64,000 bases of DNA, taken from Escherichia phage ZX4221. Positions 6,379 to 17,146 of this stretch are shown one piece after another. The translations under genes and the position numbers were made by a program. The number at the start of each line of letters is the position of its first letter. Position 1 is the stretch's first letter. Under the pieces are notes generated by a model that saw only the letters and a list, made by a program, of their open reading frames with translations, did not search any database and had not been told where the DNA came from. Where the stretch lies: sequence record OR498728.1, one strand, 5' to 3'.

Positions 6379-6843
6379 TTACTTTGGGTATACACTGTCA
6401 AGATAAATGTCAGCTTCCATTCTACGTCTGTTTTTCAGACCATTTGAAGTGACCTTCTTACCTTTGACTGTAACCTTGTTCCACCACTGCATAGCTTCTG
6501 CACAACCTACCTTGTTACCAGCATTGTGGCGCTTGATAAATGTAGAATCCTGCATAGCTGTGATACCGATGTTGTATGTTTCACTTACAAGTGCATCGAA
6601 CTCATTCTGAGAAGTTGGAGCCTTGATAGCTTTATTCACTGCTGCAACAAACTTCTCAACATCTGCGAGAAGATACTGTTCAGCTTGTTCAGCCGTGATT
6701 TTCATACCCATCTTAACAGGTTTTCCGTCAATACGGATTGTACCATACCCAATTGTTGGGATTCCGGCAGAGTCTTCGTAAGCCTCTAACTTCAGACCTT
6801 CAAAGAACTTAATAGCTTCTAAACCTTTTCTTGAGAGTTGCAT
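6379..6843 (-). CDS. endolysin, T4-lysozyme-like (glycoside hydrolase family 24)
   Basis: N-terminal FEGLKLEAYEDSAGIPTIGYGT matches the T4 lysozyme catalytic Glu/Asp/Thr region; 154 aa. Confidence 0.8.
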   Translation of the reverse strand: MQLSRKGLEAIKFFEGLKLEAYEDSAGIPTIGYGTIRIDGKPVKMGMKITAEQAEQYLLADVEKFVAAVNKAIKAPTSQNEFDALVSETYNIGITAMQDSTFIKRHNAGNKVGCAEAMQWWNKVTVKGKKVTSNGLKNRRRMEADIYLDSVYPK

Positions 6844-8228
6844 TATGCCTCCCCTGCTGGGTTAACTGTAACTGTTGCCGCATTAGATGTCACAGAGCCA
6901 CCTGCACCAGTAACTACACAGGTGTAGCTTCCTGCATCAGTAGTAGTTGCACCTTCTTTGGTGTAAGTTGCAGCAGTTGCGTCTAGGATGTTTTCCTCAC
7001 CCTTCTTCCACTGGTAACCTGTTGCACCTGTTGCCACAACATTCAGCGTTAAGGTCTCACCTTCAGTGATTTCTTGATTGGCTGGTTGTTGAGTGATGAC
7101 AGGAAGAGCATTAACGGTAACCGTTGCAGCATTAGATGTGACTGTTGTACCACCTGCACCAGTAACTACACAGGTATATGAACCAGCATCGGCAGGGTCT
7201 GCTTTAGCTTTCGTGTAAGTTGCACCAGTTGCGCTAGGGATGTTCACATTATCTTTCTTCCATTGATAACCTGTTGCACCTGTGGCCTCAATGCTCAGCG
7301 TCAAACTGCCACCTTCATTGACTACTTGGTTAGTTGGCTGCTTGGTAATAACTGGCAAAGCATTTACCGTGACAGTTGCAGGGTTAGAAGTAACAGAACC
7401 TCCAGCACCAGTTACAACGCAAGTGTAAGAACCTGCATCTGCTGGAAGCGCACCAGATTTGCTATAGTTAGCATTTGTAGCTGATGGGATGTCAGAGCCA
7501 TCTTTCTTCCATTGGTAGCCTGTTGCACCTGTTGCAGTAACTGATAAGTCAATGTTTCCACCCTCATTAATGGTCTGGCTAGAAGGTTGCTGTGTAATCA
7601 CAGGTAGTGCGTTAACAGTAACCGTTGCCGCATCTGAGGTAACACTTGTTCCACCATCTCCAGATACAACACAAGTGTATGAACCAGCGTCAGAAGGTGC
7701 TACAGATTGTTTTGTATAGGTTGCAGATGTGGCACTGGAGATATTCTCACCATCCTTCTTCCATTGATACCCAGTGGCATTAGTTGCGAGAACACTTAGG
7801 GTAAGTGCTCCACCTTCATTGACTGTTTGGTTTGTCGGTTGCTGAGTAATTACTGGTGGCTTAATGGCATCCTTCAACTTAGCATTCAACATTGAGAACG
7901 GTTTAACTCTTGCCAACCATTCACAATACACTGTGTCAACGTCTTTACCATTGATAATTGCATATTGTAAATCCATGAAGAAGTCAGAAGTTCTCATTTG
8001 AGCACCGACGCTGTAAAGCAAATCATCACTAAAAGGAACTTTGTAGTCTGGTTTGTAGTCAAACTTCTTAACCTCTGCGATATCAGCTTCAGGCCAATAT
8101 GAGCTATAGGTGAGTGGTAAAATAGCTTCTTGATATGTTCTAAAATCATATCTCTTACCAGCCTTTACATTTGCGATGAAGCCCTTCACAAATTCTTTGA
8201 AGTCTGGGTAAGTCTTTGCTTTAATCAT
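6843..8228 (-). CDS. protein with four tandem Ig-like repeats fused to an N-terminal domain paralogous to the next gene
   Basis: Four repeats of ~80 aa (VITQQP..NEGG..L..ATGATGYQWKKDG..AGSYTCVV..VTVN); N-terminal ~120 aa aligns by eye with 8225..8596. Confidence 0.6.
   Translation of the reverse strand: MIKAKTYPDFKEFVKGFIANVKAGKRYDFRTYQEAILPLTYSSYWPEADIAEVKKFDYKPDYKVPFSDDLLYSVGAQMRTSDFFMDLQYAIINGKDVDTVYCEWLARVKPFSMLNAKLKDAIKPPVITQQPTNQTVNEGGALTLSVLATNATGYQWKKDGENISSATSATYTKQSVAPSDAGSYTCVVSGDGGTSVTSDAATVTVNALPVITQQPSSQTINEGGNIDLSVTATGATGYQWKKDGSDIPSATNANYSKSGALPADAGSYTCVVTGAGGSVTSNPATVTVNALPVITKQPTNQVVNEGGSLTLSIEATGATGYQWKKDNVNIPSATGATYTKAKADPADAGSYTCVVTGAGGTTVTSNAATVTVNALPVITQQPANQEITEGETLTLNVVATGATGYQWKKGEENILDATAATYTKEGATTTDAGSYTCVVTGAGGSVTSNAATVTVNPAGEA
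6900..7860. repeat. Four ~240 bp tandem coding repeats (Ig-like domains)
   Basis: Nucleotide and protein periodicity visible inside CDS 6843..8228. Confidence 0.7.
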
Positions 8229-9853: not shown

Positions 9854-10225
9854 ATGAAAAACAGAACAAACAAAGGCCAGTTTAAAAAAGGCCAGTCTGG
9901 AAACCCATCTGGAAGACCAAAAGGCTCTCGTAACAAAAGCTCACTTGTAAAAGCTCAACTGACCATTGATAATTCTGCTGAGTTTGCTGCAAAGTTGTTT
10001 GAGGCGATTGTTACAAGGGATGCTGCTAAGCTTGCAGAGTTCGGTTTAAACACAGATGACGTAACCATCAAGAGCATGATTGAGGTCGGTAAAACTATCA
10101 TGACTCACTCAGCAGGTGAGATGAAAGCAATTGCAGCAGATACTAAGAAGACCCCTGATAATGGTGGTCAACCACAGACAGATAACAAACCAACGTTCTC
10201 TGCTGTAGCGACTCTCAAAAAATAA
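9854..10225 (+). CDS. hypothetical protein with GNPSGRPKG motif (123 aa)
   Basis: ORF-track ORF; AAGAGG Shine-Dalgarno 8 nt upstream of ATG. Confidence 0.55.
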   Translation: MKNRTNKGQFKKGQSGNPSGRPKGSRNKSSLVKAQLTIDNSAEFAAKLFEAIVTRDAAKLAEFGLNTDDVTIKSMIEVGKTIMTHSAGEMKAIAADTKKTPDNGGQPQTDNKPTFSAVATLKK

Positions 10226-10237
10226 TTTTAAAAGGTG

Positions 10238-10267
10238 TTGACAGACTCTACAAAGTTACTCTAAAGT
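10238..10267 (+). promoter_or_regulatory. Possible sigma70-like promoter
   Basis: TTGACA at 10238, 17-18 nt spacer, weak -10 (TAAAGT). Confidence 0.3.
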
Positions 10268-10306: not shown

Positions 10307-11722
10307 ATGAGCGAATTATTTAAACATGCGCACCTTCATGCAGGTCGAACTGAAAATGGTGCTGTAAACCATACTTCATCAATGTCTGCTCTGGTAGACT
10401 TCTACAAAGCCGCTGGCTCAAGCCGTAGCAATGTAGAAATCTTACCAGACCTGTTCTACAAAGCTTTGCGTGAGGATGTTGATGTTGCAGTTCGTATTTT
10501 ACTGCATATGCGAGATGTACGAGAAGGTATGGGTGAGCGTAAAGCTTTCCGAACTGTTTTACTTCAAGCGATTGAAGATAAGGTTTTAGAACCTACACAG
10601 GTTCTTCGCATTATGGATAAGATTGCAGAGCTTGGTCGTTTTGATGACTTCAAAATCTTCGTAGGTACTCGTTTTGAGACAGATGCCTTCAAACATTTAG
10701 AAGCAGCATTACTAGACCCTGCAACAGCAGGTTTAGCGGCTAAGTGGTTACCACGAGTAAAACCACGCCACAAACAGTTTGTAAAACGTTTCTGTAAGTT
10801 TGCAAACTTAAGTGAGAAGGAGTATCGCACACTGTTATCTGCACTGTCCGATACGGTTGAGCAAAAAATCTCTGCTAATGAGTTTGGTAAGATTGACTAC
10901 AGCAAGATTCCTTCACTCGCTGCTGCACGTTACCAAAAGCTCTTTAACCGTAAAGATGGTGAACGTTACAAAGCTTATATCGAGTCACTCTCAAAGGGTG
11001 AGGCTAAGATTAACGCTGGTGCTGTTTACCCATACGATGTGATTAAATCTATCAAGTATGGTAATGCAGGTGTTGCTAATGAGCAGTGGAAAGCACTACC
11101 AAACTGGATGGCAGAGGGTGAAAACATCTTGTGTATGACTGATGTTTCAAGCTCAATGTCTTGGGTGAATCTTGGTTCAATCACTGCCCTTGATATTGGC
11201 GTATCACTTGCCTTGTATGTAGCAGAACGCAATACAGGTTGCTTTAAGAATGAGTTAATGGTTTATTCAACAAACCCTCACTTCATCGAACTGAGTGGTG
11301 ATTTGAGAAACCGTCACCGTCAGGTAATGCGTCATGTTGAATATGGTTCAACTAACTTACAAGCAGCTTTTGACCGCATTCTTGAAATAGGTAAGAGAAA
11401 CAACTTGACTCAGAAAGATATGCCAAGTAAGCTTATTATCTTCTCTGATATGGAGTTTAATCAGGTTGATGGTGCAAATGGTCGTACAAACTTTGAAGCA
11501 ATTCAGAGTAAGTACAAAAAAGCTGGATACGAAATGCCACAACTAGTATTCTGGTACTTAGCAAACCGTAATGGTACTTGCGAAGTATCTGTTAAAGATA
11601 ATGGTGTAGCAATGGTATCAGGGTTCTCTCCAGCCACTTTAAAAGCTCTGCTTGGTGGTGAGAAGTTTGACCCAATCAACGTAATGCTCAAAGCAGTAAT
11701 GGTTGACCGTTACATCTGGTAA
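10307..11722 (+). CDS. vWA (MIDAS) domain protein, putatively Ro60/TROVE-like RNA-binding protein
   Basis: 471 aa; C-terminal half has MIDAS-like TDVSSSM ... GSTN ... FSDME; N-terminal TENGAV...ALVDFYKAAGSSR resembles the start of TROVE domains from memory; good RBS; gene is certain, TROVE assignment is inference. Confidence 0.6.
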   Translation: MSELFKHAHLHAGRTENGAVNHTSSMSALVDFYKAAGSSRSNVEILPDLFYKALREDVDVAVRILLHMRDVREGMGERKAFRTVLLQAIEDKVLEPTQVLRIMDKIAELGRFDDFKIFVGTRFETDAFKHLEAALLDPATAGLAAKWLPRVKPRHKQFVKRFCKFANLSEKEYRTLLSALSDTVEQKISANEFGKIDYSKIPSLAAARYQKLFNRKDGERYKAYIESLSKGEAKINAGAVYPYDVIKSIKYGNAGVANEQWKALPNWMAEGENILCMTDVSSSMSWVNLGSITALDIGVSLALYVAERNTGCFKNELMVYSTNPHFIELSGDLRNRHRQVMRHVEYGSTNLQAAFDRILEIGKRNNLTQKDMPSKLIIFSDMEFNQVDGANGRTNFEAIQSKYKKAGYEMPQLVFWYLANRNGTCEVSVKDNGVAMVSGFSPATLKALLGGEKFDPINVMLKAVMVDRYIW

Positions 11723-11730
11723 AAAGTTTA

Positions 11731-11768
11731 AAAAGGGTATTGACAATGTGTTTAATACCCTTTAATAT
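11731..11768 (+). promoter_or_regulatory. Sigma70-like promoter for the tRNA array, embedded in a hairpin
   Basis: TTGACA 11740-45, 17 nt spacer, TAATAT 11763-68; flanked by 9 bp inverted repeat AAAGGGTAT/ATACCCTTT. Confidence 0.55.
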
Positions 11769-11830
11769 GTTCTACATAGAAACGAAATGAGAGCTTTTCT
11801 AAGATACTGAAAAATATTTTAAAAAAGTTC

Positions 11831-11860
11831 TTGACAACCACTAAAAAATAATGTTAAAGT
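11831..11860 (+). promoter_or_regulatory. Possible second promoter upstream of first tRNA
   Basis: TTGACA at 11831-36 with weak -10 about 17-18 nt downstream. Confidence 0.3.
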
Positions 11861-11886
11861 GGTTACATAGAGTTTGAAAAGTTTAT

Positions 11887-11963
11887 CTCTGTTTAGCTCA
11901 GCTTGGTAGAGCGTTCCGTTTGGGGCGGTAAGGCCGGAGGTTCAAGTCCTCCAACAGAGACCA
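11887..11963 (+). tRNA. tRNA-Pro (anticodon TGG)
   Basis: Hand-folded: acceptor CTCTGTT/AACAGAG, D-stem GCTC/GAGC, anticodon loop TTTGGGG, T-arm GGAGG-TTCAAGT-CCTCC, CCA encoded. Confidence 0.75.
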
Positions 11964-11970
11964 AATTAAT

Positions 11971-12048
11971 GTTCCAGTAGACAAAACGGTAAAGTCACCA
12001 CTCTTTCAAAGTGGATATTTGAGGGTTCAAATCCCTTCTGGAACGCCA
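11971..12048 (+). tRNA. tRNA-Glu (anticodon TTC)
   Basis: Acceptor GTTCCAG/CTGGAAC, anticodon stem CCACT/AGTGG with loop CTTTCAA, T-loop TTCAAAT, CCA encoded. Confidence 0.7.
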
Positions 12049-12055
12049 GTCTTGA

Positions 12056-12128
12056 CAGAAGACCAATTGCAGCAAACTTAATCTTATTCATCTGACACGA
12101 AATCGGACAAAGAAGAGATTTGGTCTGG
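12056..12128 (+). ncRNA. Stem-closed structured element A (CAGAAGACC ... GGTCTGG family), Y-RNA-like candidate
   Basis: 5' CAGAAGACCAA pairs with 3' TTGGTCTGG (7 bp); conserved 5' box CAGAAGACCnnnTnCAGCAA; inner hairpin AATCT/AGATT; directly follows tRNA-Glu. Confidence 0.4.
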
Positions 12129-12139
12129 TCATTAAGAAT

Positions 12140-12216
12140 TGCGGGTATAGAGAAAGGGCGTCTCACATGTCTCATTAGCATGGTATCGGCAGGTTCGACT
12201 CCTGCACCCGCCTCCA
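12140..12216 (+). tRNA. tRNA-Met (anticodon CAT), copy 1
   Basis: T-arm GCAGG-TTCGACT-CCTGC, acceptor TGCGGGT/ACCCGCC with mismatch at pair 1-72, anticodon loop CTCATTA; CCA encoded. Confidence 0.6.
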
Positions 12217-12222
12217 ATTTTG

Positions 12223-12283
12223 CAGAAGACCGTATTCAGCAACAAACTACTTTTTGCGGATAAAAGAAAAAAACACGGTCTGG
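12223..12283 (+). ncRNA. Stem-closed structured element B (same family)
   Basis: 5' CAGAAGACCGT pairs with 3' ACGGTCTGG (7 bp); same 5' box as element A. Confidence 0.4.
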
Positions 12284-12294
12284 CAATGTATTAA

Positions 12295-12371
12295 GGTTAG
12301 GAAGCACATAAGGTATGTGCGGTCGCCTGTTAAGCGAATGGCACAGGGTTCGAATCCCTGACTAACCGCCA
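12295..12371 (+). tRNA. tRNA-Asn (anticodon GTT)
   Basis: D-stem GCAC/GTGC, anticodon loop CTGTTAA, T-arm CAGGG-TTCGAAT-CCCTG, acceptor GGTTAGG/ACTAACC, CCA encoded. Confidence 0.7.
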
Positions 12372-12380
12372 AATTTAAAT

Positions 12381-12468
12381 GTGTCGTTATCCCGTAGATG
12401 GTAGCGGTGGGGACTGTAAATCCCTTGTCATTGAGACTCGGTAGGTTCGACTCCTACACGGCACACCA
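12381..12468 (+). tRNA. tRNA-Tyr (anticodon GTA), long variable arm
   Basis: 88 nt; acceptor GTGTCGT/ACGGCAC, anticodon stem GGGGA/TCCCT loop CTGTAAA, T-arm GTAGG-TTCGACT-CCTAC, CCA encoded. Confidence 0.7.
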
Positions 12469-12474
12469 AATAAA

Positions 12475-12552
12475 GGTTATGTAGTTTAATCTGGTTAAAA
12501 TACTCCCCTGTCACGGGAGATGATGAGGGTTCAAATCCCTTCGTAACCGCCA
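12475..12552 (+). tRNA. tRNA-Asp (anticodon GTC)
   Basis: Anticodon stem CTCCC/GGGAG perfect, loop CTGTCAC, T-loop TTCAAAT, acceptor GGTTATG/CGTAACC, CCA encoded. Confidence 0.75.
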
Positions 12553-12639
12553 AATTATAATAAGTATTTCAAGATGATGTTTTGAGAGGGCTATTTAGCC
12601 CCTCCCTTAAAGAGTTCTTACGAGTATTCTTTAAAGGAG

Positions 12640-12713
12640 CAGAAGACCAAATGCAGCAAGAATGTATGAAATTTCAAGCCAATTTAATTTTGAAAATTTA
12701 AACTTGGTCTGGC
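12640..12713 (+). ncRNA. Stem-closed structured element C (same family)
   Basis: 5' CAGAAGACCAA ... 3' TTGGTCTGG; inner hairpin AAATTTCAA/TTGAAATTT. Confidence 0.4.
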
Positions 12714-12725
12714 TCAACAAATTTA

Positions 12726-12857
12726 CAGAAGACCGTTTACAGCAAAACTTAAACAATCTATTTCTCCGGTAAAGAAAAGGCGAAGGTTCGATTCCTTCAC
12801 TCGGCAGATGTCGAGTTGGTGTAATGGTAGCACTTAAGATGATAAACAACGGTCTGG
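12726..12857 (+). ncRNA. Stem-closed structured element D enclosing a circularly permuted tRNA-like module; Y-RNA (YrlA-type) candidate
   Basis: Outer 8 bp stem AGACCGTT/AACGGTCT; inside, in order: anticodon-like arm TTTCT-CCGGTAA-AGAAA, T-arm GAAGG-TTCGATT-CCTTC, ACTCGGC-A-GAT-GTCGAGT acceptor hairpin, D-arm GTGT-AATGGTA-GCAC. Confidence 0.5.
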
Positions 12858-12860
12858 TAA

Positions 12861-12999
12861 TTATCTTTGTAGATAAGTTATTAAGCTTCCCTGTGAGTAT
12901 GCGACCACAAAGGTGAAAGGGTAGATTCTAGATTTAACCCGAAAAGACACATCGCTACAGACCTTAAGCAAGTCTGGGTAGCTTATCTACAAAGATAAT
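12861..12999 (+). ncRNA. Structured element bounded by a perfect 17 bp inverted repeat
   Basis: TTATCTTTGTAGATAAG (12861-77) and its exact reverse complement (12983-99) enclose ~105 nt with internal hairpins. Confidence 0.4.
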
Positions 13000-13004
13000 T
13001 TAAT

Positions 13005-13080
13005 GGAAGTGTAGCAGAATGGTGATGCGGCAGACTTTTAATCTGACAGGCGATGGGTTCGAATCCCTCCACTTCTACCA
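13005..13080 (+). tRNA. tRNA-Lys (anticodon TTT)
   Basis: Acceptor GGAAGTG/CACTTCT, anticodon loop CTTTTAA, T-loop TTCGAAT with imperfect T-stem ATGGG/CCCTC, CCA encoded. Confidence 0.6.
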
Positions 13081-13084
13081 ATAT

Positions 13085-13161
13085 GGTTCAGTCGCAGATA
13101 AGGTAATGCAGGGGTTTCATAAGCCCTATGAATGTGGGTTCGATTCCCATCTGAACCTCCA
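13085..13161 (+). tRNA. tRNA-Met (anticodon CAT), copy 2 (initiator, elongator or Ile-lysidine not resolved)
   Basis: Acceptor GGTTCAG/CTGAACC perfect, anticodon stem GGGGT/GCCCT loop TTCATAA, T-arm GTGGG-TTCGATT-CCCAT, CCA encoded. Confidence 0.7.
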
Positions 13162-13162
13162 A

Positions 13163-13238
13163 GCTGGTATAGTTAAGAAGGTTATAACACTCCCCTGATA
13201 AGGGAACATCGGTGGTTCGATTCCACCTACCAGTACCA
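13163..13238 (+). tRNA. tRNA-Ile (anticodon GAT)
   Basis: D-stem GTTA/TAAC, anticodon loop CTGATAA, T-arm GGTGG-TTCGATT-CCACC, acceptor GCTGGTA/TACCAGT, CCA encoded. Confidence 0.7.
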
Positions 13239-13253
13239 ATTCCAATAAAGTTG

Positions 13254-13282
13254 TTGACATTGAGATGTGACCACTTTATAGT
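13254..13282 (+). promoter_or_regulatory. Internal sigma70-like promoter within tRNA array
   Basis: TTGACA 13254-59, 17 nt spacer, TATAGT 13277-82. Confidence 0.55.
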
Positions 13283-13574
13283 AACTAAAATACTTCATAA
13301 TATGTATAATTCAAACACCAATACATGAGTGTTAGACGTAACACAATGTGGGGAAATTTGTTGTACATATTCTGAATAGTTTTCGTTGCGTAGCGTCTAT
13401 TTTGCAAACTTAAAATAAATGCAAACGACAATGTTTTTCTGGCAGTAGCTTGATAGGCTAAACACCAGTGAGGTCTTCCAACCCCTCATCAAAGAATTTG
13501 GCGTACTCGCCCACGGTATGATTAATAAGGTGGGCATCTTTAAGGGCTTTTTAAGAGAGTCTTTAAAGATTAAT

Positions 13575-13651
13575 GCACCCTTAGTTCAACTGGACAGAGC
13601 AAATGACTTCTAATCATTGAGTTACAGGTTCGAATCCTGTAGGGTGTGCCA
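13575..13651 (+). tRNA. tRNA-Arg (anticodon TCT)
   Basis: Anticodon stem AATGA/TCATT perfect, loop CTTCTAA, T-arm ACAGG-TTCGAAT-CCTGT, acceptor GCACCCT/AGGGTGT, CCA encoded. Confidence 0.75.
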
Positions 13652-13793
13652 AATAGTTAGCAGATTGCTTAGACGACCTTATCGGGTCTCCGTGTAAGGA
13701 GGTGGTCTGTATCTCATGTTTTCCAGAACATGTAAATAATCTGAGAAGGGGCTTTACAGTGTTGCGAAAATACGGTAAGCTTCGAATTATAGT

Positions 13794-13876
13794 GTGGGAC
13801 GATGTTAAGACTCTAAGGCATGAGCAACGGCCTCCAAAACCGTTTCAAAGGGGTTCAACTCCTCCGTCCCATGCCA
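13794..13876 (+). tRNA. tRNA-Trp-like (anticodon CCA) with atypical extended D-region
   Basis: Acceptor GTGGGAC/GTCCCAT, anticodon arm ACGGC-CTCCAAA-ACCGT, T-loop TTCAACT, CCA encoded; about 8 extra nt between acceptor and D-stem, so canonical fold not achieved by hand. Confidence 0.4.
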
Positions 13877-13889
13877 AAGTCTTATTAGG

Positions 13890-13977
13890 GGTAGGTAGCG
13901 GCTAATGGTAGCCAAACTGTCTTGAAAACAGTTGCCACTGTAGAGATACGGTGAGGGTTCGACTCCTTTACTTACCG
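13890..13977 (+). tRNA. tRNA-Ser (anticodon TGA), long variable arm, CCA not encoded
   Basis: Acceptor GGTAGGT/ACTTACC, 3 bp D-stem, anticodon stem ACTGT/ACAGT perfect with loop CTTGAAA, ~20 nt variable arm, T-loop TTCGACT. Confidence 0.6.
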
Positions 13978-14235
13978 CCTAATAAGATTTTACACCGTCC
14001 ATGCTTGCTCGCATTTTCGGTTTATCCCTCGTGTATTGTCGTACACACTGATAAAGCACCTAGTAGGTGTCACGGAGAAGAGATAATATCAAGCTCTCCA
14101 AAGGTTCTAGTCACCGGATTGAACAAGACTATGCAAAGACCTAAATAGGTCTTTTTAGAGGGCTTCTAAGGTTATTACAGCTTGTTGTGGAACCTTGTTG
14201 CTTAGGTTCTTAGAAGTTCTCTAAAAAGATTTAAT

Positions 14236-14312
14236 GCACCTATAGCCCAACTGGTAGAGGCAGCAGACTTAGAATCTGCTCAGTGTGAGTTCGAATCTCT
14301 CTAGGTGTACCA
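14236..14312 (+). tRNA. tRNA-Leu-type anticodon TAG, class I (short variable arm) architecture
   Basis: 77 nt; acceptor GCACCTA/TAGGTGT, anticodon stem GCAGA/TCTGC perfect, loop CTTAGAA, 5 nt variable loop, discriminator A, CCA encoded. Confidence 0.6.
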
Positions 14313-14319
14313 AATTAAT

Positions 14320-14395
14320 GCAGGTGTAGCAAAATGGTTATGCGGCTGACTCTTAATCAGTAAGACGATGGGTTCAATTCCCTCCACCTGTACCA
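14320..14395 (+). tRNA. tRNA-Lys (anticodon CTT)
   Basis: Paralog of tRNA-Lys(TTT): acceptor GCAGGTG/CACCTGT, anticodon loop CTCTTAA, T-loop TTCAATT with same imperfect T-stem, CCA encoded. Confidence 0.6.
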
Positions 14396-14401
14396 AACAT
14401 T

Positions 14402-14477
14402 GGGGATGTAGTTTACATGGTTAAAACATAAGTTTTGCAAACTTAAGTACAGGGTTCAATTCCCTGCTTCTCCACCA
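14402..14477 (+). tRNA. tRNA-Ala (anticodon TGC)
   Basis: G3:U70 wobble pair present in acceptor stem; anticodon stem TAAGT/ACTTA perfect, loop TTTGCAA; T-arm CAGGG-TTCAATT-CCCTG; CCA encoded. Confidence 0.75.
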
Positions 14478-14483
14478 ATTAGT

Positions 14484-14558
14484 GCATCCATAGTTTAAAC
14501 GGGAAAATTACAGTCTTCCAAACTGAGGTTGAGGGTTCGATTCCCTCTGGATGCTCCA
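14484..14558 (+). tRNA. tRNA-Gly (anticodon TCC)
   Basis: Acceptor GCATCCA/TGGATGC perfect, anticodon loop CTTCCAA, T-arm GAGGG-TTCGATT-CCCTC, CCA encoded. Confidence 0.75.
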
Positions 14559-14565
14559 AATTAAT

Positions 14566-14641
14566 GCTCCTATCGTATAATTGGCTATTACGGTTGCCTT
14601 GTAAGCAACTTATCAGGGTTCGAATCCTTGTGGGAGCACCA
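14566..14641 (+). tRNA. tRNA-Thr (anticodon TGT)
   Basis: Anticodon stem GTTGC/GCAAC perfect, loop CTTGTAA, T-arm CAGGG-TTCGAAT-CCTTG, acceptor GCTCCTA/TGGGAGC, CCA encoded. Confidence 0.75.
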
Positions 14642-14645
14642 ATTC

Positions 14646-14731
14646 AGAGGTCAAGTGAAAGACCGCTGGTGTCAACTGAAGACCGTAACAAATTCCACGG
14701 AGTTGAGTTAGCGGCACAACTTCAGACCTCT
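14646..14731 (+). ncRNA. Structured element E, divergent relative of the CAGAAGACC family
   Basis: Outer stem AGAGGTC/GACCTCT; contains CTGAAGACCGTAACAAATT resembling the family 5' box; nested stems CCGCT/AGCGG and CTGAAG/CTTCAG. Confidence 0.3.
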
Positions 14732-14736
14732 TTCAT

Positions 14737-14811
14737 ACTCGCTTAGTTTATATGGTAAAACATCACCCTTACAAGATGGAGAAAAAGGTTCAAGTCCTTT
14801 AGTGAGTACCA
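14737..14811 (+). tRNA. tRNA-Val (anticodon TAC)
   Basis: D-stem GTTT/AAAC, anticodon loop CTTACAA, T-arm AAAGG-TTCAAGT-CCTTT, acceptor ACTCGCT/AGTGAGT, CCA encoded. Confidence 0.7.
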
Positions 14812-14812
14812 T

Positions 14813-14890
14813 GTTCCAGTATCCCAATTGGCAGAGGATGCAAGCTCAAACCTTGTACTAGTGACGGTTCGAATCCGTCTTGGAACACCA
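14813..14890 (+). tRNA. tRNA-Leu-type anticodon CAA, class I (short variable arm) architecture
   Basis: 78 nt; acceptor GTTCCAG/TTGGAAC, anticodon stem GCAAG/CTTGT, loop CTCAAAC, ~6 nt variable loop, T-arm GACGG-TTCGAAT-CCGTC, discriminator A, CCA encoded. Confidence 0.55.
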
Positions 14891-14895
14891 ATTTT

Positions 14896-14971
14896 GCAGG
14901 ATTAGTTCAAATGGATAGAGCAACAGTCTACGAAGCTGTTAATAGGGGTTCGAATCCCTTATCCTGCGCCA
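14896..14971 (+). tRNA. tRNA-Arg (anticodon ACG)
   Basis: Acceptor GCAGGAT/ATCCTGC perfect, D-stem GTTC/GAGC, anticodon loop CTACGAA, T-loop TTCGAAT, CCA encoded. Confidence 0.75.
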
Positions 14972-14989
14972 GATAAGTAAGAGGAATTT

Positions 14990-15232
14990 ATGCAAACATT
15001 AATCGTCGTTGAACATGAAAATTCCAATAGTATTGAGTTTGTAAGGGTTCCCACTATAGATACCCACATTTTCTTGAAAGTCGGATGGGGATGTGACCCA
15101 ATAAAAGTAGAAAATTTTATTGGTCATTACTTTGGTGGAAGACAACTTAAAAGCGTCAATTTTGAGACAATGTTACCAGAAAACTCAGAAACAAATAATA
15201 ATGTTTATCTCCTTACGAGGATTAGACAATGA
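14990..15232 (+). CDS. hypothetical protein inside tRNA array (80 aa)
   Basis: AAGAGGA Shine-Dalgarno 6 nt before ATG; stop overlaps next start (ATGA). Confidence 0.45.
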   Translation: MQTLIVVEHENSNSIEFVRVPTIDTHIFLKVGWGCDPIKVENFIGHYFGGRQLKSVNFETMLPENSETNNNVYLLTRIRQ

Positions 15233-15786
15233 GATATCTGAAGTATGCTTCATGGATTTTCCTAGCTTTGTTAGACCCATTGGCAGCAACCTTAGCAGTT
15301 ATCTTAGCACCCTTTGTAGTCCCATTCTACAGTGAGAAGAAAGGCCATCTACCTTTTGGATTCAGATGGATGGAGACATATGACAACCCGATTGATGGCG
15401 ATGAAGGTCATATGAAACGATGGGCTAAGATTAGAAAGATTGGTAAGCTCGGTGTCTATATGCAGAGAGTTGGCTGGCTCTGGAGAAACAAAGCTTATAA
15501 CTTCTCTTACCATGTGTTAGGAAGAGATGTAAAAGATGTTACTAAGTGGAAAGGTAATATCAACGTGAGTTCTGACCCTGAAGATAATCAGACAGGTTAT
15601 CTCCTAATGTGGAACAGTAATGCTTGGGGATTATTTGCTTTTATCCCATCAATTAAAATCTTTGGTAAACAATTCTACTGGAGAATTTATGTTGGATGGA
15701 AACTTAAAAGTGTTGTCCCAGAAGAAAGAGCATTCTCAAGGGAAAGAGTTATGTTGGCATTCTTTATTCATCCACTGAGAAAGTAA
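15229..15786 (+). CDS. hypothetical protein with hydrophobic N-terminus inside tRNA array (185 aa)
   Basis: ORF-track ORF; translationally coupled to 14990..15232; N-terminal WIFLALLDPLAATLAVILAPFVVPF looks membrane-associated. Confidence 0.5.
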   Translation: MRYLKYASWIFLALLDPLAATLAVILAPFVVPFYSEKKGHLPFGFRWMETYDNPIDGDEGHMKRWAKIRKIGKLGVYMQRVGWLWRNKAYNFSYHVLGRDVKDVTKWKGNINVSSDPEDNQTGYLLMWNSNAWGLFAFIPSIKIFGKQFYWRIYVGWKLKSVVPEERAFSRERVMLAFFIHPLRK

Positions 15787-15794
15787 AGATTTAA

Positions 15795-15870
15795 AGGGGA
15801 TTAGTTTACAAGGTTAAAACCTCGGTCTTTGAAATCGAAGAAGTTGGTTCAATTCCAACATCCCCCGCCA
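15795..15870 (+). tRNA. tRNA-Gln (anticodon TTG)
   Basis: Anticodon stem TCGGT/ATCGA, loop CTTTGAA, T-arm GTTGG-TTCAATT-CCAAC, A1-C72 mismatch at top of acceptor, discriminator G, CCA encoded. Confidence 0.65.
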
Positions 15871-15872
15871 AT

Positions 15873-15951
15873 GCTCCATTACTCCAATTGGCAGAGAGGC
15901 CAGACTTAAAATCTGTGTTATGTATCGGTTCGAATCCGATATGGAGTACCA
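15873..15951 (+). tRNA. tRNA-Leu-type anticodon TAA, class I (short variable arm) architecture
   Basis: 79 nt; acceptor GCTCCAT/ATGGAGT, anticodon stem CAGA/TCTG, loop CTTAAAA, ~7 nt variable loop, T-arm ATCGG-TTCGAAT-CCGAT perfect, discriminator A, CCA encoded. Confidence 0.55.
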
Positions 15952-15956
15952 AATTT

Positions 15957-16032
15957 AGCGGTATAGCATAACTGGCAATGCAGCAGTCTCTGAAGCTGTC
16001 TTATTAAGGTTCAAATCCTTATGCCGCTGCCA
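15957..16032 (+). tRNA. tRNA-Gln (anticodon CTG)
   Basis: Acceptor AGCGGTA/TGCCGCT, D-stem GCAT/ATGC, anticodon loop CTCTGAA, T-arm TAAGG-TTCAAAT-CCTTA, discriminator G, CCA encoded. Confidence 0.65.
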
Positions 16033-16063
16033 CTTCTAAGGGTTCTTACGAGAGTCCTTAAAT

Positions 16064-16139
16064 GTGGCCTTATCATAAATGGTAATGACCCATGCTGTGA
16101 ACATGGTCTATACGGGTTCAAATCCCGTAGGTCACCCCA
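16064..16139 (+). tRNA. tRNA-His (anticodon GTG)
   Basis: Anticodon stem CCATG/CATGG perfect, loop CTGTGAA, D-stem TCAT/ATGA, T-arm ACGGG-TTCAAAT-CCCGT, discriminator C; no encoded G-1 (preceding base is T). Confidence 0.7.
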
Positions 16140-16145
16140 ATTTAT

Positions 16146-16221
16146 AGTCCAAGTAGCTTATATGGTTAAAGCGCGTGTCTGAAAAACATGAGAAGAGGGT
16201 TCAAATCCCACTGGACTACCA
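16146..16221 (+). tRNA. tRNA-Phe (anticodon GAA), irregular acceptor/linker geometry
   Basis: Anticodon stem CGTGT/ACATG, loop CTGAAAA, D-stem GCTT/AAGC, T-loop TTCAAAT; acceptor pairs only as 6 bp or with a 4 nt linker to the D-stem; boundaries uncertain. Confidence 0.55.
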
Positions 16222-16237
16222 ATTTCAAAGGTGCTTA

Positions 16238-16972
16238 ATGAAAGAGATGACAGAACAAGGTAAGGAGATTTTTAATCTCTTAAAAACCGGTAGAGGGTTT
16301 TCTAATCCCCTTATTACTGGTGCAGCAGTTCTCGGTGGAACCGTAGCTGCCTCTACATCACTTGTAAGCTCTATTAGCTCTGTAACAGACCCTACAATAA
16401 AGGATAAGCTTATTGCTGCTGGACTTACAACAGTTCTGCTTAACAGCTTTACAACGAGTCTGACAAGCACTACATCAACCACTAAGACACTGACAGATTA
16501 TGGTCAAAAGTCCATTGATGAGTTTTCATCACGTATGCAGGTAGCAAAAGGATATTCCAATGTTATGGGTGCAGCAGGAGAACAAGTCGGTTGTACACCA
16601 TTTAGTGGTATTATGGGTGTTGCTACAGAATATGGTCAAAAAGCTATTGACACAATTAACAGTGCACTAGATGGTGTTAATGATGTGTTAAGTGACTTAC
16701 AAGATGCTATTGATGAAGGTCTTGATACTATTTCTGATTTAGCTAACCAAGCTGTTAGCAAGATTAATGAAGGTATCTCGAAGATTACAGCTTATGCAGA
16801 TGAAGTTGTGCAGATGATTGAAGAAGAAGCTGCCCTTATTGCAGAGTACCTTAAAACGAATATCAATGGGTTCTTAGCAGGTATCTTACCAGACTGGTTT
16901 GATGATGCTTGTAAAACTGGTGTAATTGATACTATTGCAACACCAGAAATGAAGAACGCATTACAGAAATAA
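16238..16972 (+). CDS. hypothetical Ser/Thr-rich protein (244 aa)
   Basis: ORF-track ORF trimmed to first ATG with RBS (AAAGG) that does not overlap tRNA-Phe. Confidence 0.5.
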   Translation: MKEMTEQGKEIFNLLKTGRGFSNPLITGAAVLGGTVAASTSLVSSISSVTDPTIKDKLIAAGLTTVLLNSFTTSLTSTTSTTKTLTDYGQKSIDEFSSRMQVAKGYSNVMGAAGEQVGCTPFSGIMGVATEYGQKAIDTINSALDGVNDVLSDLQDAIDEGLDTISDLANQAVSKINEGISKITAYADEVVQMIEEEAALIAEYLKTNINGFLAGILPDWFDDACKTGVIDTIATPEMKNALQK

Positions 16973-16973
16973 T

Positions 16974-17066
16974 GGAAGATTAACCCTAAAAGGTAAGGGA
17001 GCAGTTTGCTAAACTGCCAGTAGCTGAGAAATCGGTGTACCAGTTCAAGTCTGGTATCTTCCTCCA
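16974..17066 (+). tRNA. tRNA-Ser (anticodon GCT), long variable arm
   Basis: 93 nt; acceptor GGAAGAT/ATCTTCC perfect, anticodon stem GCAGT/ACTGC perfect, loop TTGCTAA, T-arm ACCAG-TTCAAGT-CTGGT, CCA encoded. Confidence 0.75.
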
Positions 17067-17070
17067 ATTT

Positions 17071-17146
17071 GAATCCGTGACAGAAATGGCTATGTGCCTG
17101 TCTGCAAAACAGGTTTATAAGGGTTCGAGTCCCTTCGGATTCTCCA
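17071..17146 (+). tRNA. tRNA-Cys (anticodon GCA)
   Basis: Acceptor GAATCCG/CGGATTC perfect, anticodon stem CCTGT/ACAGG perfect, loop CTGCAAA, T-arm AAGGG-TTCGAGT-CCCTT, CCA encoded. Confidence 0.75.

What the first reader, a model, noticed from the sequence alone, without database searches (positions are those of the whole stretch)
10307..13000. Candidate phage Ro60/Y-RNA system: vWA protein gene immediately upstream of a tRNA array seeded with stem-closed structured RNAs
The 471 aa protein has a clear MIDAS-type vWA signature (TDVSSSM ... GSTN ... FSDME) in its C-terminal half and a helical N-terminal half starting TENGAV..ALVDFYKAAGSSR, which I infer resembles Ro60/TROVE proteins. Within 1.5 kb downstream sit four paralogous RNA elements whose 5' and 3' ends pair to close the molecule, and one contains a tRNA-like module. 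Established knowledge: Ro60 proteins bind Y RNAs through a stem formed by the RNA termini, bacterial YrlA-type Y RNAs carry a tRNA-like domain, and such genes are often next to tRNA genes. A protein-plus-ncRNA pair of this kind in a virulent phage tRNA array would be a distinct, little-described system.
Basis: partly seen in the sequence, partly recalled or inferred. Interest (0 to 1): 0.85.

Follow-up and report, generated by a model that had tools for sequence, protein, structure and literature searches.

The report
Phage Ro60-like protein with partner RNAs
A Felix O1-type phage encodes a ring-shaped Ro60-like protein and, in the spacers of its tRNA genes just downstream, a family of small RNAs with a shared "handle"; that handle recurs next to the same gene in many distant phages and closely matches the unexplained Class I RNAs of social amoebae.

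Summary
The window is a Felixounavirus.

**RNAs.** Four paralogous RNAs lie in the tRNA-operon spacers: A 12059-12128, B 12226-12283, C 12643-12712, D 12729-12857. They share a 7-bp terminal stem with an invariant G-C pair and a U-N-CAGCAA box. D carries a circularly permuted tRNA-like domain. A fifth structured RNA, E, follows.

**Wider distribution.** The same handle sits within 1 kb of the gene, on its strand, in 45 of 66 distant phage loci; 27 of those have no tRNA. All 52 covariance-model hits lie on the gene strand. Long forms match Rfam YrlA (E=1e-5). Short forms match only Rfam's Dictyostelium Class I RNA model, end to end. Both stay below the gathering scores.

Binding, expression and RNA ends are inferred, not shown.

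The parts
10238..10267 (+). sigma-70-like promoter upstream of the Ro60-like gene (TTGACA-18-TAAAGT)
   Evidence: Consensus scan. Such sites are not enriched over shuffles, so this is only a candidate.
10307..11722 (+). Gene for a 471-aa Ro60-fold protein (DUF2828 helical N-terminal half plus DUF7788/vWA C-terminal half with an intact MIDAS site); ortholog of Bas63 gp130
11740..11860 (+). Two sigma-70-like promoters (11740-11768 and 11831-11860) in front of the tRNA/small-RNA operon
   Evidence: sequence read.
11887..12048 (+). tRNA-Pro and tRNA-Glu, the first genes of the array
12059..12128 (+). Element A: short handle RNA (AAG, stem GACCAA/UUGGUC, box UUGCAGCAA, 3' CUGG)
   Evidence: Model R1 gives 28.2 bits, E=3.6e-5, and A was not in the training set.
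12140..12216 (+). Atypical tRNA-Met(CAT) between A and B, called by ARAGORN only
   Evidence: It is absent from the Rfam tRNA hits and scores 15.9 bits as tRNA-Sec.
12226..12283 (+). Element B: short handle RNA, 58 nt
   Evidence: R1 36.3 bits (B was in the training set). Rfam Dicty_Class_I_RNA 22.9 bits, end to end. Fold z=-2.4.
12295..12552 (+). tRNA-Asn, tRNA-Tyr and tRNA-Asp
12643..12712 (+). Element C: short handle RNA
   Evidence: R1 24.9 bits, E=2.9e-4, not in the training set.
12729..12857 (+). Element D: long handle RNA. Stem 12730-12736/12849-12855; box UUACAGCAA 12737-12745; anticodon-like hairpin 12761-12777; T arm 12782-12798; acceptor-like hairpin 12799-12816; D arm 12818-12834. 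Together these form a circularly permuted tRNA-like domain.
   Evidence: (tRNA model positions 7-64, 22 bits). In one search the acceptor-like hairpin has 3 pairs with compensatory changes, and one stem change, C to U, keeps a G-U pair.
12859..13001 (+). Element E: 143-nt RNA closed by a stem of about 23 bp. It contains a miniature handle hairpin at 12958-12976 (CAGAC-CUUAAGCAA-GUCUG).
   Evidence: Fold z=-5.4. Six pairs carry compensatory changes between Felixounavirus and Mooglevirus-type orthologs.
13005..13238 (+). tRNA-Lys, tRNA-Met and tRNA-Ile; the array continues directly after E

Best explanation
The region encodes a phage ribonucleoprotein of the Ro60/Y-RNA type, built from non-canonical parts.

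**Protein (shown).** The 471-aa protein has the Ro60 architecture: a helical HEAT-like ring closed by a vWA domain with an intact MIDAS site. By sequence it belongs to the very large DUF2828/DUF7788 family.

**RNAs (shown).** Four paralogous small RNAs (A-D) and a related one (E) are encoded just downstream, inside the spacers of the phage tRNA operon. A-D share a "handle". This is a 6-7 bp terminal stem whose sequence varies but always pairs, with an invariant G-C pair one step in from the end, an AA before the invariant G, and UG(G) after the 3' strand. A single-stranded U-N-CAGCAA box abuts the 5' strand. The rest is a variable module: AU-rich in A-C, and a circularly permuted tRNA-like domain in D.

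**Mechanism (inferred).**
1. The RNAs are transcribed with the tRNAs from the promoters at 11740 and 11831. They are released by the tRNA-processing enzymes (RNase P, RNase Z/E) plus exonuclease trimming back to the stem.
2. The handle is the docking site for the Ro60-like ring, as the terminal stem and conserved motif are for Ro60 on Y RNAs.
3. The variable modules act as adaptors or decoys. The tRNA mimic in D could engage tRNA-binding host factors, or tether an exoribonuclease such as PNPase as bacterial and phiLo Y RNAs do.
4. The complex protects the infection from an RNA- or tRNA-directed host response. This fits the report that the Bas63 ortholog gp130 counters the Ppl defence system.

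For: **RNA family in the window.**

**Comparative association.**
- A strict grammar gives 173 hits on the gene strand, 21 on the other strand and 14 in shuffles, over 83 loci.
- Covariance model R1 gives 52 hits at E<=0.05 in 66 distant loci (38-47% protein identity), all on the gene strand.
- 45 of 66 distant loci have an element within 1 kb, and 27 of those have no tRNA in the locus.
- Most remaining loci carry a CUGCAA-box or long variant directly downstream of the gene.
- Reciprocal test from RNA to gene: of 54 IMG/VR pattern matches with stem closure, 31 have a DUF2828 gene in the held flank, always on the same strand. Of 71 matches without closure, 3 do.

**Covariation.**
- 6 of 7 handle pairs change on both sides. 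The set was selected for pairing, so only the enrichment counts are independent evidence.
- The acceptor-like hairpin of D has 3 compensatory pairs.
- In long forms from 8 distant phage loci plus the window, 14 of 16 pairs covary.

**Link to true Y RNAs.** Rfam YrlA matches long forms in L030 (41.4 bits, E=1e-5) and L021 (38.2 bits) over the whole model.

**Literature.** Bas63 gp130 is Ro60-like and counters Ppl. phiLo Ro60 binds two phage Y-like RNAs and host PNPase. YrlA RNAs lie within 4 kb of Ro60 genes on the same strand.
Against: - No experiment here shows transcription, RNA ends or protein binding.
- The protein does not match the TROVE profile or any PDB sequence.
- No element reaches an Rfam gathering score. 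YrlA and Y_RNA do not hit the window elements at E<=10.
- The YrlA Rsr-binding motif GNCGAA is absent.
- Short forms have no significant folding energy.
- About 18 of 66 distant loci lack a strict-grammar element.
- Some perfect handle RNAs lie in loci with no DUF2828 gene in the held flanks.
- In KVP40-like loci the handle encloses the gene's own ribosome-binding site. In that lineage at least, this suggests a cis-regulatory role rather than a free RNA.
Confidence: 0.75

Rival explanations
1. The elements are only by-products of the tRNA operon: processing spacers, leader/trailer signals for RNase P/Z/E, or decayed tRNA genes. On this view they have no relationship to the upstream protein.
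For: They sit in tRNA spacers, with about 10 nt separating A and B from the neighbouring tRNAs. D contains tRNA pieces. Some GenBank records annotate 'tRNA pseudogene' or 'tRNA-OTHER' in this stretch.
Against: The same handle RNAs flank the DUF2828 gene in 27 distant loci that have no tRNA within about 5 kb. All 52 R1 hits lie on the gene strand and near the gene. Searching from the RNA recovers the gene. In D the tRNA parts are permuted in the YrlA order, and the acceptor-like hairpin keeps pairing through compensatory changes.
Confidence: 0.05
2. The handle is a cis-acting regulatory site rather than a free RNA. It would be an operator on the mRNA or precursor, through which the Ro60-like protein (or a host factor) controls translation or processing of its own gene and of the tRNA operon.
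For: In KVP40-like loci L019 and L020 the handle lies in the 5' UTR, with the Shine-Dalgarno sequence in the loop and the AUG in the 3' strand. Several other loci have an element 14-70 nt upstream of the start codon.
Against: In the window the four copies lie downstream of the gene, past the two promoter-like sites at 11740 and 11831, and between tRNAs. Many distant loci have the RNA downstream of the gene followed by its own intrinsic terminator. Long forms carry elaborate tRNA-like modules that an operator would not need. The two roles could coexist, as with autoregulatory RNA-binding proteins.
Confidence: 0.12
3. The protein acts without RNA, as a vWA/MIDAS protein-binding anti-defence factor. 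The handle RNAs would then serve another partner, for example a host RRM-type or Hfq-like protein or an RNase, and are merely co-inherited with the gene.
For: The MIDAS site is invariant, and MIDAS sites usually bind proteins. PhageMaP showed only that gp130 counters Ppl, not that RNA is involved. The only protein shown to bind Dictyostelium Class I RNAs directly is the RRM protein Rnp1A.
Against: The whole-protein fold match is to Ro60, whose known ligands are RNAs. The tight, strand-specific linkage of RNA and gene persists at 38-47% protein identity. Long forms are detectably YrlA-like, and YrlA is a known Ro60 ligand.
Confidence: 0.08

Closest known systems
Bacterial Ro60 (Rsr) with YrlA/YrlB Y RNAs (Salmonella, Deinococcus, mycobacteriophages; Chen et al. 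2014, PMC4201824)
   Same: - A ring-plus-vWA protein with small RNAs encoded within a few kb on the same strand.
- One long RNA with a tRNA-like domain in the order T arm, acceptor-like hairpin, D arm, alongside shorter RNAs that lack it.
- A terminal stem formed by the 5' and 3' ends, with a conserved motif next to the 5' strand.
- Rfam YrlA detects distant long forms at E=1e-5.
   Different: - The protein is DUF2828/DUF7788, with no TROVE profile match and a shorter helical half.
- The handle motif is U-N-CAGCAA, not GNCGAAN0-1G.
- The window elements are not found by the YrlA model.
- The RNAs are embedded in a tRNA operon, and there are five of them.
- Element D keeps an anticodon-like arm.
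Thermus phage phiLo Ro60 with Yrl1/Yrl2 (PMC12135203; PDB 9KOP, 9L5Y)
   Different: The phiLo protein is a canonical TROVE protein. Its RNAs carry the CGAA motif and lie upstream of the gene. Binding to the RNAs and to host PNPase was shown experimentally there and not here.
Bas63 (Escherichia phage JohannRWettstein) gp130, PhageMaP preprint 10.1101/2024.10.10.617714
   Same: It is the direct ortholog (bas63_0130). The authors noted the Ro60-like structure and its position upstream of the tRNAs, and showed that it counters the Ppl defence system.
   Different: They only speculated that "some tRNA genes are possibly Y RNAs". The candidate partner RNAs found here are not the annotated tRNAs but unannotated spacer elements with a distinct handle.
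Dictyostelid Class I RNAs (Rfam RF01414; Kjellin et al. 2021, PMC7919456)
   Same: The grammar is the same:
- length of 40-65 nt;
- a 6-bp terminal stem that covaries, with an invariant 5' G paired to C;
- an AAG start and a CUG(U) end;
- the motif (C)CUUACAGCAA directly after the 5' strand;
- a variable AU-rich remainder.

RF01414 aligns end to end at exactly the grammar-defined coordinates (22.9-31.9 bits). It is the only non-tRNA Rfam family that hits these elements.
   Different: - The Rfam gathering score of 41.5 bits is not reached.
- Class I RNAs are eukaryotic RNAs with their own DUSE promoters, reported as unique to Dictyostelia.
- Their known direct binder is the RRM protein Rnp1A.
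- No link between Class I RNAs and a Ro60-like protein has been reported.
- Whether dictyostelids encode a DUF2828 protein could not be checked here.

Membership tests
Pfam DUF2828 (PF11443) / DUF7788 (PF25043) | Score above the Pfam gathering thresholds | tested here: met
   DUF7788 scores 149.1 bits against a cut-off of 27.1; DUF2828 scores 101.8 against 29. All 120 listed homologs carry at least PF11443, and nearly all carry both domains.
Ro60 / TROVE (PF05731) | Sequence match to the TROVE profile or to Ro60 sequences | tested here: not met
   No TROVE hit at E<=1. No PDB sequence hit with the single sequence or with a 37-sequence profile.
Ro60 / TROVE (PF05731) | Fold: helical-repeat ring closed by a C-terminal vWA domain | tested here: met
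Ro60 / TROVE (PF05731) | MIDAS motif in the vWA domain | tested here: met
   DxSxS (D279, S281, S283), T349 and D381 are invariant in 37 homologs.
Ro60 / TROVE (PF05731) | Binds Y RNA on the outer surface and single-stranded RNA ends in the central cavity | not testable with these tools
   Needs biochemistry or a complex structure.
YrlA Y RNA (Rfam RF02553) | Covariance-model score at or above the gathering score (69 bits) | tested here: not met
   Window element D gets no hit at E<=10. Distant long forms score 41.4, 38.2 and 26.7 bits (E=1e-5, 8e-5, 0.18).
YrlA Y RNA (Rfam RF02553) | tRNA-like domain with T arm, acceptor-like stem-loop and D arm in that order, enclosed by the terminal stem | tested here: met
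   Element D. Thirteen further long forms from 8 distant loci, with 14 of 16 pairs covarying. The YrlA model aligns T arm, hairpin and D arm of L030.
YrlA Y RNA (Rfam RF02553) | GNCGAAN0-1G motif near the 5' end (the proposed Rsr-binding site; PMC4201824) | tested here: not met
   Direct reading of A-D: U-N-CAGCAA occupies that position.
YrlA Y RNA (Rfam RF02553) | Encoded within 4 kb of the Ro60 gene on the same strand | tested here: met
   A-E lie 0.3-1.3 kb downstream on the + strand. All 52 R1 hits in distant loci are on the gene strand.
Dictyostelium Class I RNA (Rfam RF01414) | Covariance-model score at or above the gathering score (41.5 bits) | tested here: not met
   Scores are 31.9 (L042), 28.8 (L040), 28.2 (L023), 25.4 (L035) and 22.9 (window B), all end to end. 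There were no hits at gathering level. Six other loci that contain short forms gave no hit at E<=5.
Dictyostelium Class I RNA (Rfam RF01414) | A 6-bp terminal stem that covaries, with an invariant 5' G paired to C, and the 11-nt motif CCUUACAGCAA next to the 5' strand | tested here: met
   In alignment A3 the G-C pair is invariant, the other 6 pairs change on both sides, and T.CAGCA is invariant. Exact CCTTACAGCAA occurs in L023, L025, L028 and others. Window D has GUUUACAGCAA.
Dictyostelium Class I RNA (Rfam RF01414) | Mature ends AAG... and ...CUGU | tested here: inconclusive
   The flanking sequence is compatible (AAG/UAG/UUG before the stem, C-U/A-G after it), but the RNA ends were not mapped.
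Dictyostelium Class I RNA (Rfam RF01414) | DUSE promoter about 60 nt upstream; dictyostelid host | tested here: not met
   These are phage loci, with bacterial-type promoters or tRNA-operon context.

The most novel reading that the evidence does not exclude
The phage handle RNAs and the dictyostelid Class I RNAs would be one RNA class, defined by a shared protein-docking handle: a terminal stem with a G-C pair plus a (C)UUACAGCAA box. Their common partner would be the DUF2828/DUF7788 Ro60-like protein.

On this reading, Class I RNAs, whose function has been unknown since 2004 and which are said to be unique to Dictyostelia, are the amoebal counterpart of Y RNAs. [quoted passage not shown]

The long phage forms join this handle to a YrlA-type tRNA mimic. 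They would be the link between Class I RNAs and classical Y RNAs.
Probability: 0.35. Interest if true: 0.95.

Novelty: new variant of a known kind. Interest (0 to 1): 0.85.

Why it matters
Ro60/Y-RNA particles are known from animals, some bacteria and a few phages. This finding extends the principle to a much larger protein family: 8,698 clusters at 50% identity match the profile, and every one of the 150 best-scoring matches listed has the ~470-aa size of the phage proteins.

It also supplies the previously missing RNA partners, with a simple handle that can be mutated.

For phage biology, it gives a concrete hypothesis for how Bas63 gp130 counters the Ppl defence system. It also suggests why the gene sits at the head of a tRNA array.

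For RNA biology, the near-identity of the handle to Dictyostelium Class I RNAs makes a twenty-year-old question directly testable: what Class I RNAs bind and what they do.

Tried and rejected
**Searches that found nothing useful**
- Rfam at gathering thresholds found only tRNAs in the window and only tRNAs and one tmRNA in 14 distant loci.
- YrlA and Y_RNA did not hit elements A-E even at E<=10.
- PDB sequence searches, with the single sequence and with a profile, found nothing.

**Attempts to test whether Dictyostelium has a DUF2828 protein and whether DDB_G0281243 is it (all failed)**
- The AlphaFold-database fold libraries were not available.
- Avesson et al. 2011 is not held.
- Text searches for PF11443 and DDB_G0281243 gave nothing useful.
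- The preprint's supplements do not describe the protein.
- The exhaustive profile search listed only phage-type proteins among its best 150.

**Tests that proved uninformative**
- Thermodynamic stability as evidence for the short forms was rejected, because their z-scores are not significant.
- A test for co-evolution of box variant and protein clade showed only that the CUGCAA-box loci form a clade. That is what phylogeny alone would give.

**Explanation rejected**
- The idea that the elements are only tRNA-processing spacers was rejected because of the tRNA-free loci.


Full report
**What the window is.**
The 2.7-kb region is 97-98% identical to many Felix O1-like phages (Felixounavirus; 295 phage records match). 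ORF 10307-11722 (+) encodes 471 aa and is followed by an array of 26 tRNA genes at 11887-17146. GenBank annotators call the protein "hypothetical", "vWFA protein", "DUF2828 family protein" or "RNA-binding protein". No record annotates any non-tRNA RNA in the array.

**The protein.**
Pfam assigns DUF2828 to the N-terminal half and DUF7788 to the C-terminal half, with only a weak VWA_2 match and no TROVE match. PHROG 850 is labelled "RNA-binding protein". No PDB sequence is detectably related, with the single sequence or with a 37-sequence profile.

An AlphaFold2 model built on that alignment is confident (pLDDT 88.7, pTM 0.89). Its fold is unambiguous:
- The 12 best Foldseek matches in the PDB are all full-length Ro60/TROVE proteins: Thermus phage phiLo, Deinococcus Rsr, Xenopus and human Ro60. 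They have E 2e-8 to 2e-6 and 516-563 aligned columns. Proteins that match only the vWA domain follow at E>2e-3.
- The MIDAS residues (D279, S281, S283, T349, D381) are invariant, as are many basic residues in the helical half.

So the protein works like Ro60 structurally but is not a TROVE family member by sequence.

The family is very large: 8,698 clusters at 50% identity match the profile at E<=1e-3.

**Prior art.**
The PhageMaP preprint reports that gp130 of phage Bas63 is structurally similar to Ro60 and counters the Ppl defence system. [quoted passage not shown] I confirmed that bas63_0130 is the ortholog of the window ORF. The Ro60 likeness is therefore not new. No RNA partner was identified there. 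I found no paper on DUF2828/DUF7788 partner RNAs, and none linking the RNAs below to Ro60.

**The RNA elements in the window.**
The motif CAGAAGACCNNNTNCAGCAA occurs exactly four times, all on the + strand, at 12056, 12223, 12640 and 12726. Each copy is matched downstream by NNGGTCTGG.

The 7-bp stem AGACCNN/NNGGTCU closes each element, and its two variable positions covary between paralogs. Directly after the 5' strand comes the single-stranded box U-N-CAGCAA.

Elements A (12059-12128), B (12226-12283) and C (12643-12712) are short, with AU-rich interiors.

Element D (12729-12857) contains, in order:
- an anticodon-like hairpin,
- a T arm,
- a 7-bp hairpin that corresponds to the two acceptor strands joined by a loop,
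- a D arm.

That is a tRNA circularly permuted between the D and anticodon arms. Among Ounavirinae orthologs the acceptor-like hairpin keeps pairing through three compensatory double changes. One stem change, C to U, keeps a G-U pair, which argues for selection at the RNA level.

Directly after D lies element E (12859-13001). It is a hairpin closed by about 23 bp (z=-5.4), with six compensatory pairs between Felixounavirus-type and Mooglevirus-type sequences. Inside it is a miniature handle, CAGAC-CUUAAGCAA-GUCUG.

A and B lie about 10 nt from the flanking tRNAs. Two sigma-70-like promoters (11740, 11831) precede the array. I therefore infer co-transcription with the tRNAs and release by tRNA-processing enzymes. 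This step is not shown.

**Is the handle tied to the protein or to the tRNAs?**
I fetched 80 IMG/VR loci encoding relatives of the protein, 66 of them distant (38-47% identity).
- A strict grammar was applied: a 6-bp stem starting with G, a 1-5 nt gap, a CAGCA box, and a 3' strand ending in C followed by N-G. It gives 173 hits on the gene strand, 21 on the opposite strand and 14 in shuffled sequence.
- Covariance model R1, built from 30 short forms, finds elements A and C, which were not in its training set (28.2 and 24.9 bits).
- R1 gives 52 hits at E<=0.05 in the distant loci, all on the gene strand. In the census, most short forms lie 30-420 nt downstream of the gene or 14-170 nt upstream.
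- 45 of 66 distant loci have an element within 1 kb, and 27 of these have no tRNA anywhere in the held locus.
- Most of the remaining loci show a variant (box AUUCUGCAA, or long RNAs of about 170 nt) directly downstream of the gene, followed by an intrinsic terminator.
- The reverse test scanned IMG/VR for GGNTNNTTACAGCAAAC. Of 54 matches with stem closure, 31 have a DUF2828 gene in the held flank, always on the same strand. Of 71 matches without closure, 3 do.

This rules out the view that the elements are only tRNA-processing leaders.

The pairing statistics of alignment A3 (100% paired, 6 of 7 pairs changed on both sides) are inflated, because the set was selected for pairing. The enrichment, strand and linkage counts are the independent evidence.

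**Two forms, two known relatives.**
Long forms in eight distant loci (L021, L024, L030, L042, L043, L071, L077, L078, L079 among the sequences aligned) repeat the architecture of D: handle, T arm, acceptor-like hairpin, D arm. In these, 14 of 16 consensus pairs covary.

Rfam's YrlA model matches some of them over its whole length: L030 at 41.4 bits (E=1e-5) and L021 at 38.2 bits. Both are below the gathering score of 69. The alignment covers the T arm, hairpin and D arm but not the handle. In the handle, the YrlA GNCGAA motif is replaced by the CAGCAA box.

Short forms (40-65 nt) are matched by only one non-tRNA Rfam family, Dicty_Class_I_RNA (RF01414). The matches run end to end and fall at exactly the coordinates my grammar defined: L042 31.9 bits, L040 28.8, L023 28.2, L035 25.4 and window B 22.9, against a gathering score of 41.5.

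The published description of Class I RNAs fits point by point:
- length of 42-65 nt;
- a 6-bp terminal stem with compensatory changes;
- an invariant 5' G paired to a C;
- an AAG start and a CUGU end;
- the 11-nt motif CCUUACAGCAA next to the 5' strand;
- a variable remainder.

Many phage RNAs contain CCUUACAGCAA exactly.

Two cautions apply. Six loci with short forms gave no RF01414 hit at E<=5. Class I RNAs are reported as unique to Dictyostelia, and their shown direct binder is the RRM protein Rnp1A.

The DdR-21 pull-down also recovered GuaB, NdkC and an uncharacterised protein, DDB_G0281243. I could not determine whether that protein, or any dictyostelid protein, belongs to DUF2828. DUF2828 proteins are reported in plants and in mimivirus-like sequences.

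**Most likely mechanism.**
Shown:
- a Ro60-fold protein;
- a family of adjacent, same-strand RNAs with a conserved handle and variable modules, some of them YrlA-like tRNA mimics;
- linkage that is conserved across distant phages.

Inferred:
- the handle docks the RNA on the ring, as the terminal stem and conserved motif do in Ro60/Y RNA complexes;
- the modules act as adaptors or decoys, for example by tethering PNPase as in Deinococcus, Salmonella and phiLo, or by engaging tRNA-directed host factors;
- the particle contributes to the anti-Ppl activity of gp130.

In KVP40-like phages the handle encloses the gene's own Shine-Dalgarno sequence and AUG, which suggests autoregulation as an additional or alternative use.

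**Verdict.**
The Ro60/Y-RNA interpretation is supported at the level of how the system works. Membership in TROVE, YrlA or Class I by their own models is not met.

I rate it a new variant of a known kind. The Ro60-like nature of the protein is already in a preprint. The partner RNAs, their handle, their wide distribution and the resemblance to Class I RNAs are, as far as the searchable literature shows, new.

Noticed in passing
window 13290-13574 (+): A 285-nt spacer lies between a strong promoter-like site (13254-13282, 11 of 12 consensus positions) and tRNA-Arg. It folds far better than shuffles (z=-4.74) and gets weak tmRNA and permuted-tmRNA hits. It may be another unannotated structured RNA in the array.
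   Followed up: partly
window 12140-12216 (+): The tRNA-Met(CAT) flanked by elements A and B is called by ARAGORN but not by the Rfam tRNA model (15.9 bits as tRNA-Sec only). At least one phage record annotates a tRNA pseudogene within the matched 2.7-kb region, though which gene it refers to was not checked.
   Followed up: no
window 12553-12636 (+): The spacer before element C holds a GC-rich hairpin (GAGAGGGCTATTTAGCCCCTCCC) and an inverted repeat (CTTTAAAGAG...TTCTTTAAAGG). Their role is unknown.
   Followed up: no
L019 and L020, 4965-5007 (KVP40-like Vibrio phage contigs): A handle element lies in the 5' UTR of the Ro60-like gene itself. The box is UUACAGCAA, the Shine-Dalgarno sequence is in the loop and the AUG is in the 3' stem strand. 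This suggests translational autoregulation by the protein.
   Followed up: partly
L111 4581, L192 3871, L195 1996, L137 4354 (IMG/VR contigs): These loci hold perfect short handle RNAs (about 60 nt) but no DUF2828 homolog within about 2-10 kb of held flank. The gene may lie farther away, or the RNA may also occur without it.
   Followed up: partly
L082 8710-9201: A full-length phage-encoded tmRNA (87 bits) lies 2.3 kb downstream of the Ro60-like gene and its two handle RNAs.
   Followed up: no
L052, L062, L068, L076, L080, L081 (just downstream of the gene): A clade of loci uses a variant box, AUUCUGCAA, in longer RNAs (about 170 nt) that end in an intrinsic terminator. In the four loci with only this box (L062, L076, L080, L081) the proteins are 78% identical to one another and 56% identical to the rest.
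   Followed up: partly
L001 4781-4903 and 5027-5119; L003 3197-3349 and 3361-3471: GenBank records annotate small "hypothetical protein" ORFs on top of elements C, D and E. These are probably spurious calls over non-coding RNA.
   Followed up: no
window 6843-8228 (-), 9854-10225 (+), 15229-15786 (+): Neighbouring genes: a 461-aa protein with four tandem Ig-like domains, a DUF5681 protein directly upstream of the Ro60-like gene, and a DUF7338 protein inserted in the tRNA array.
   Followed up: partly
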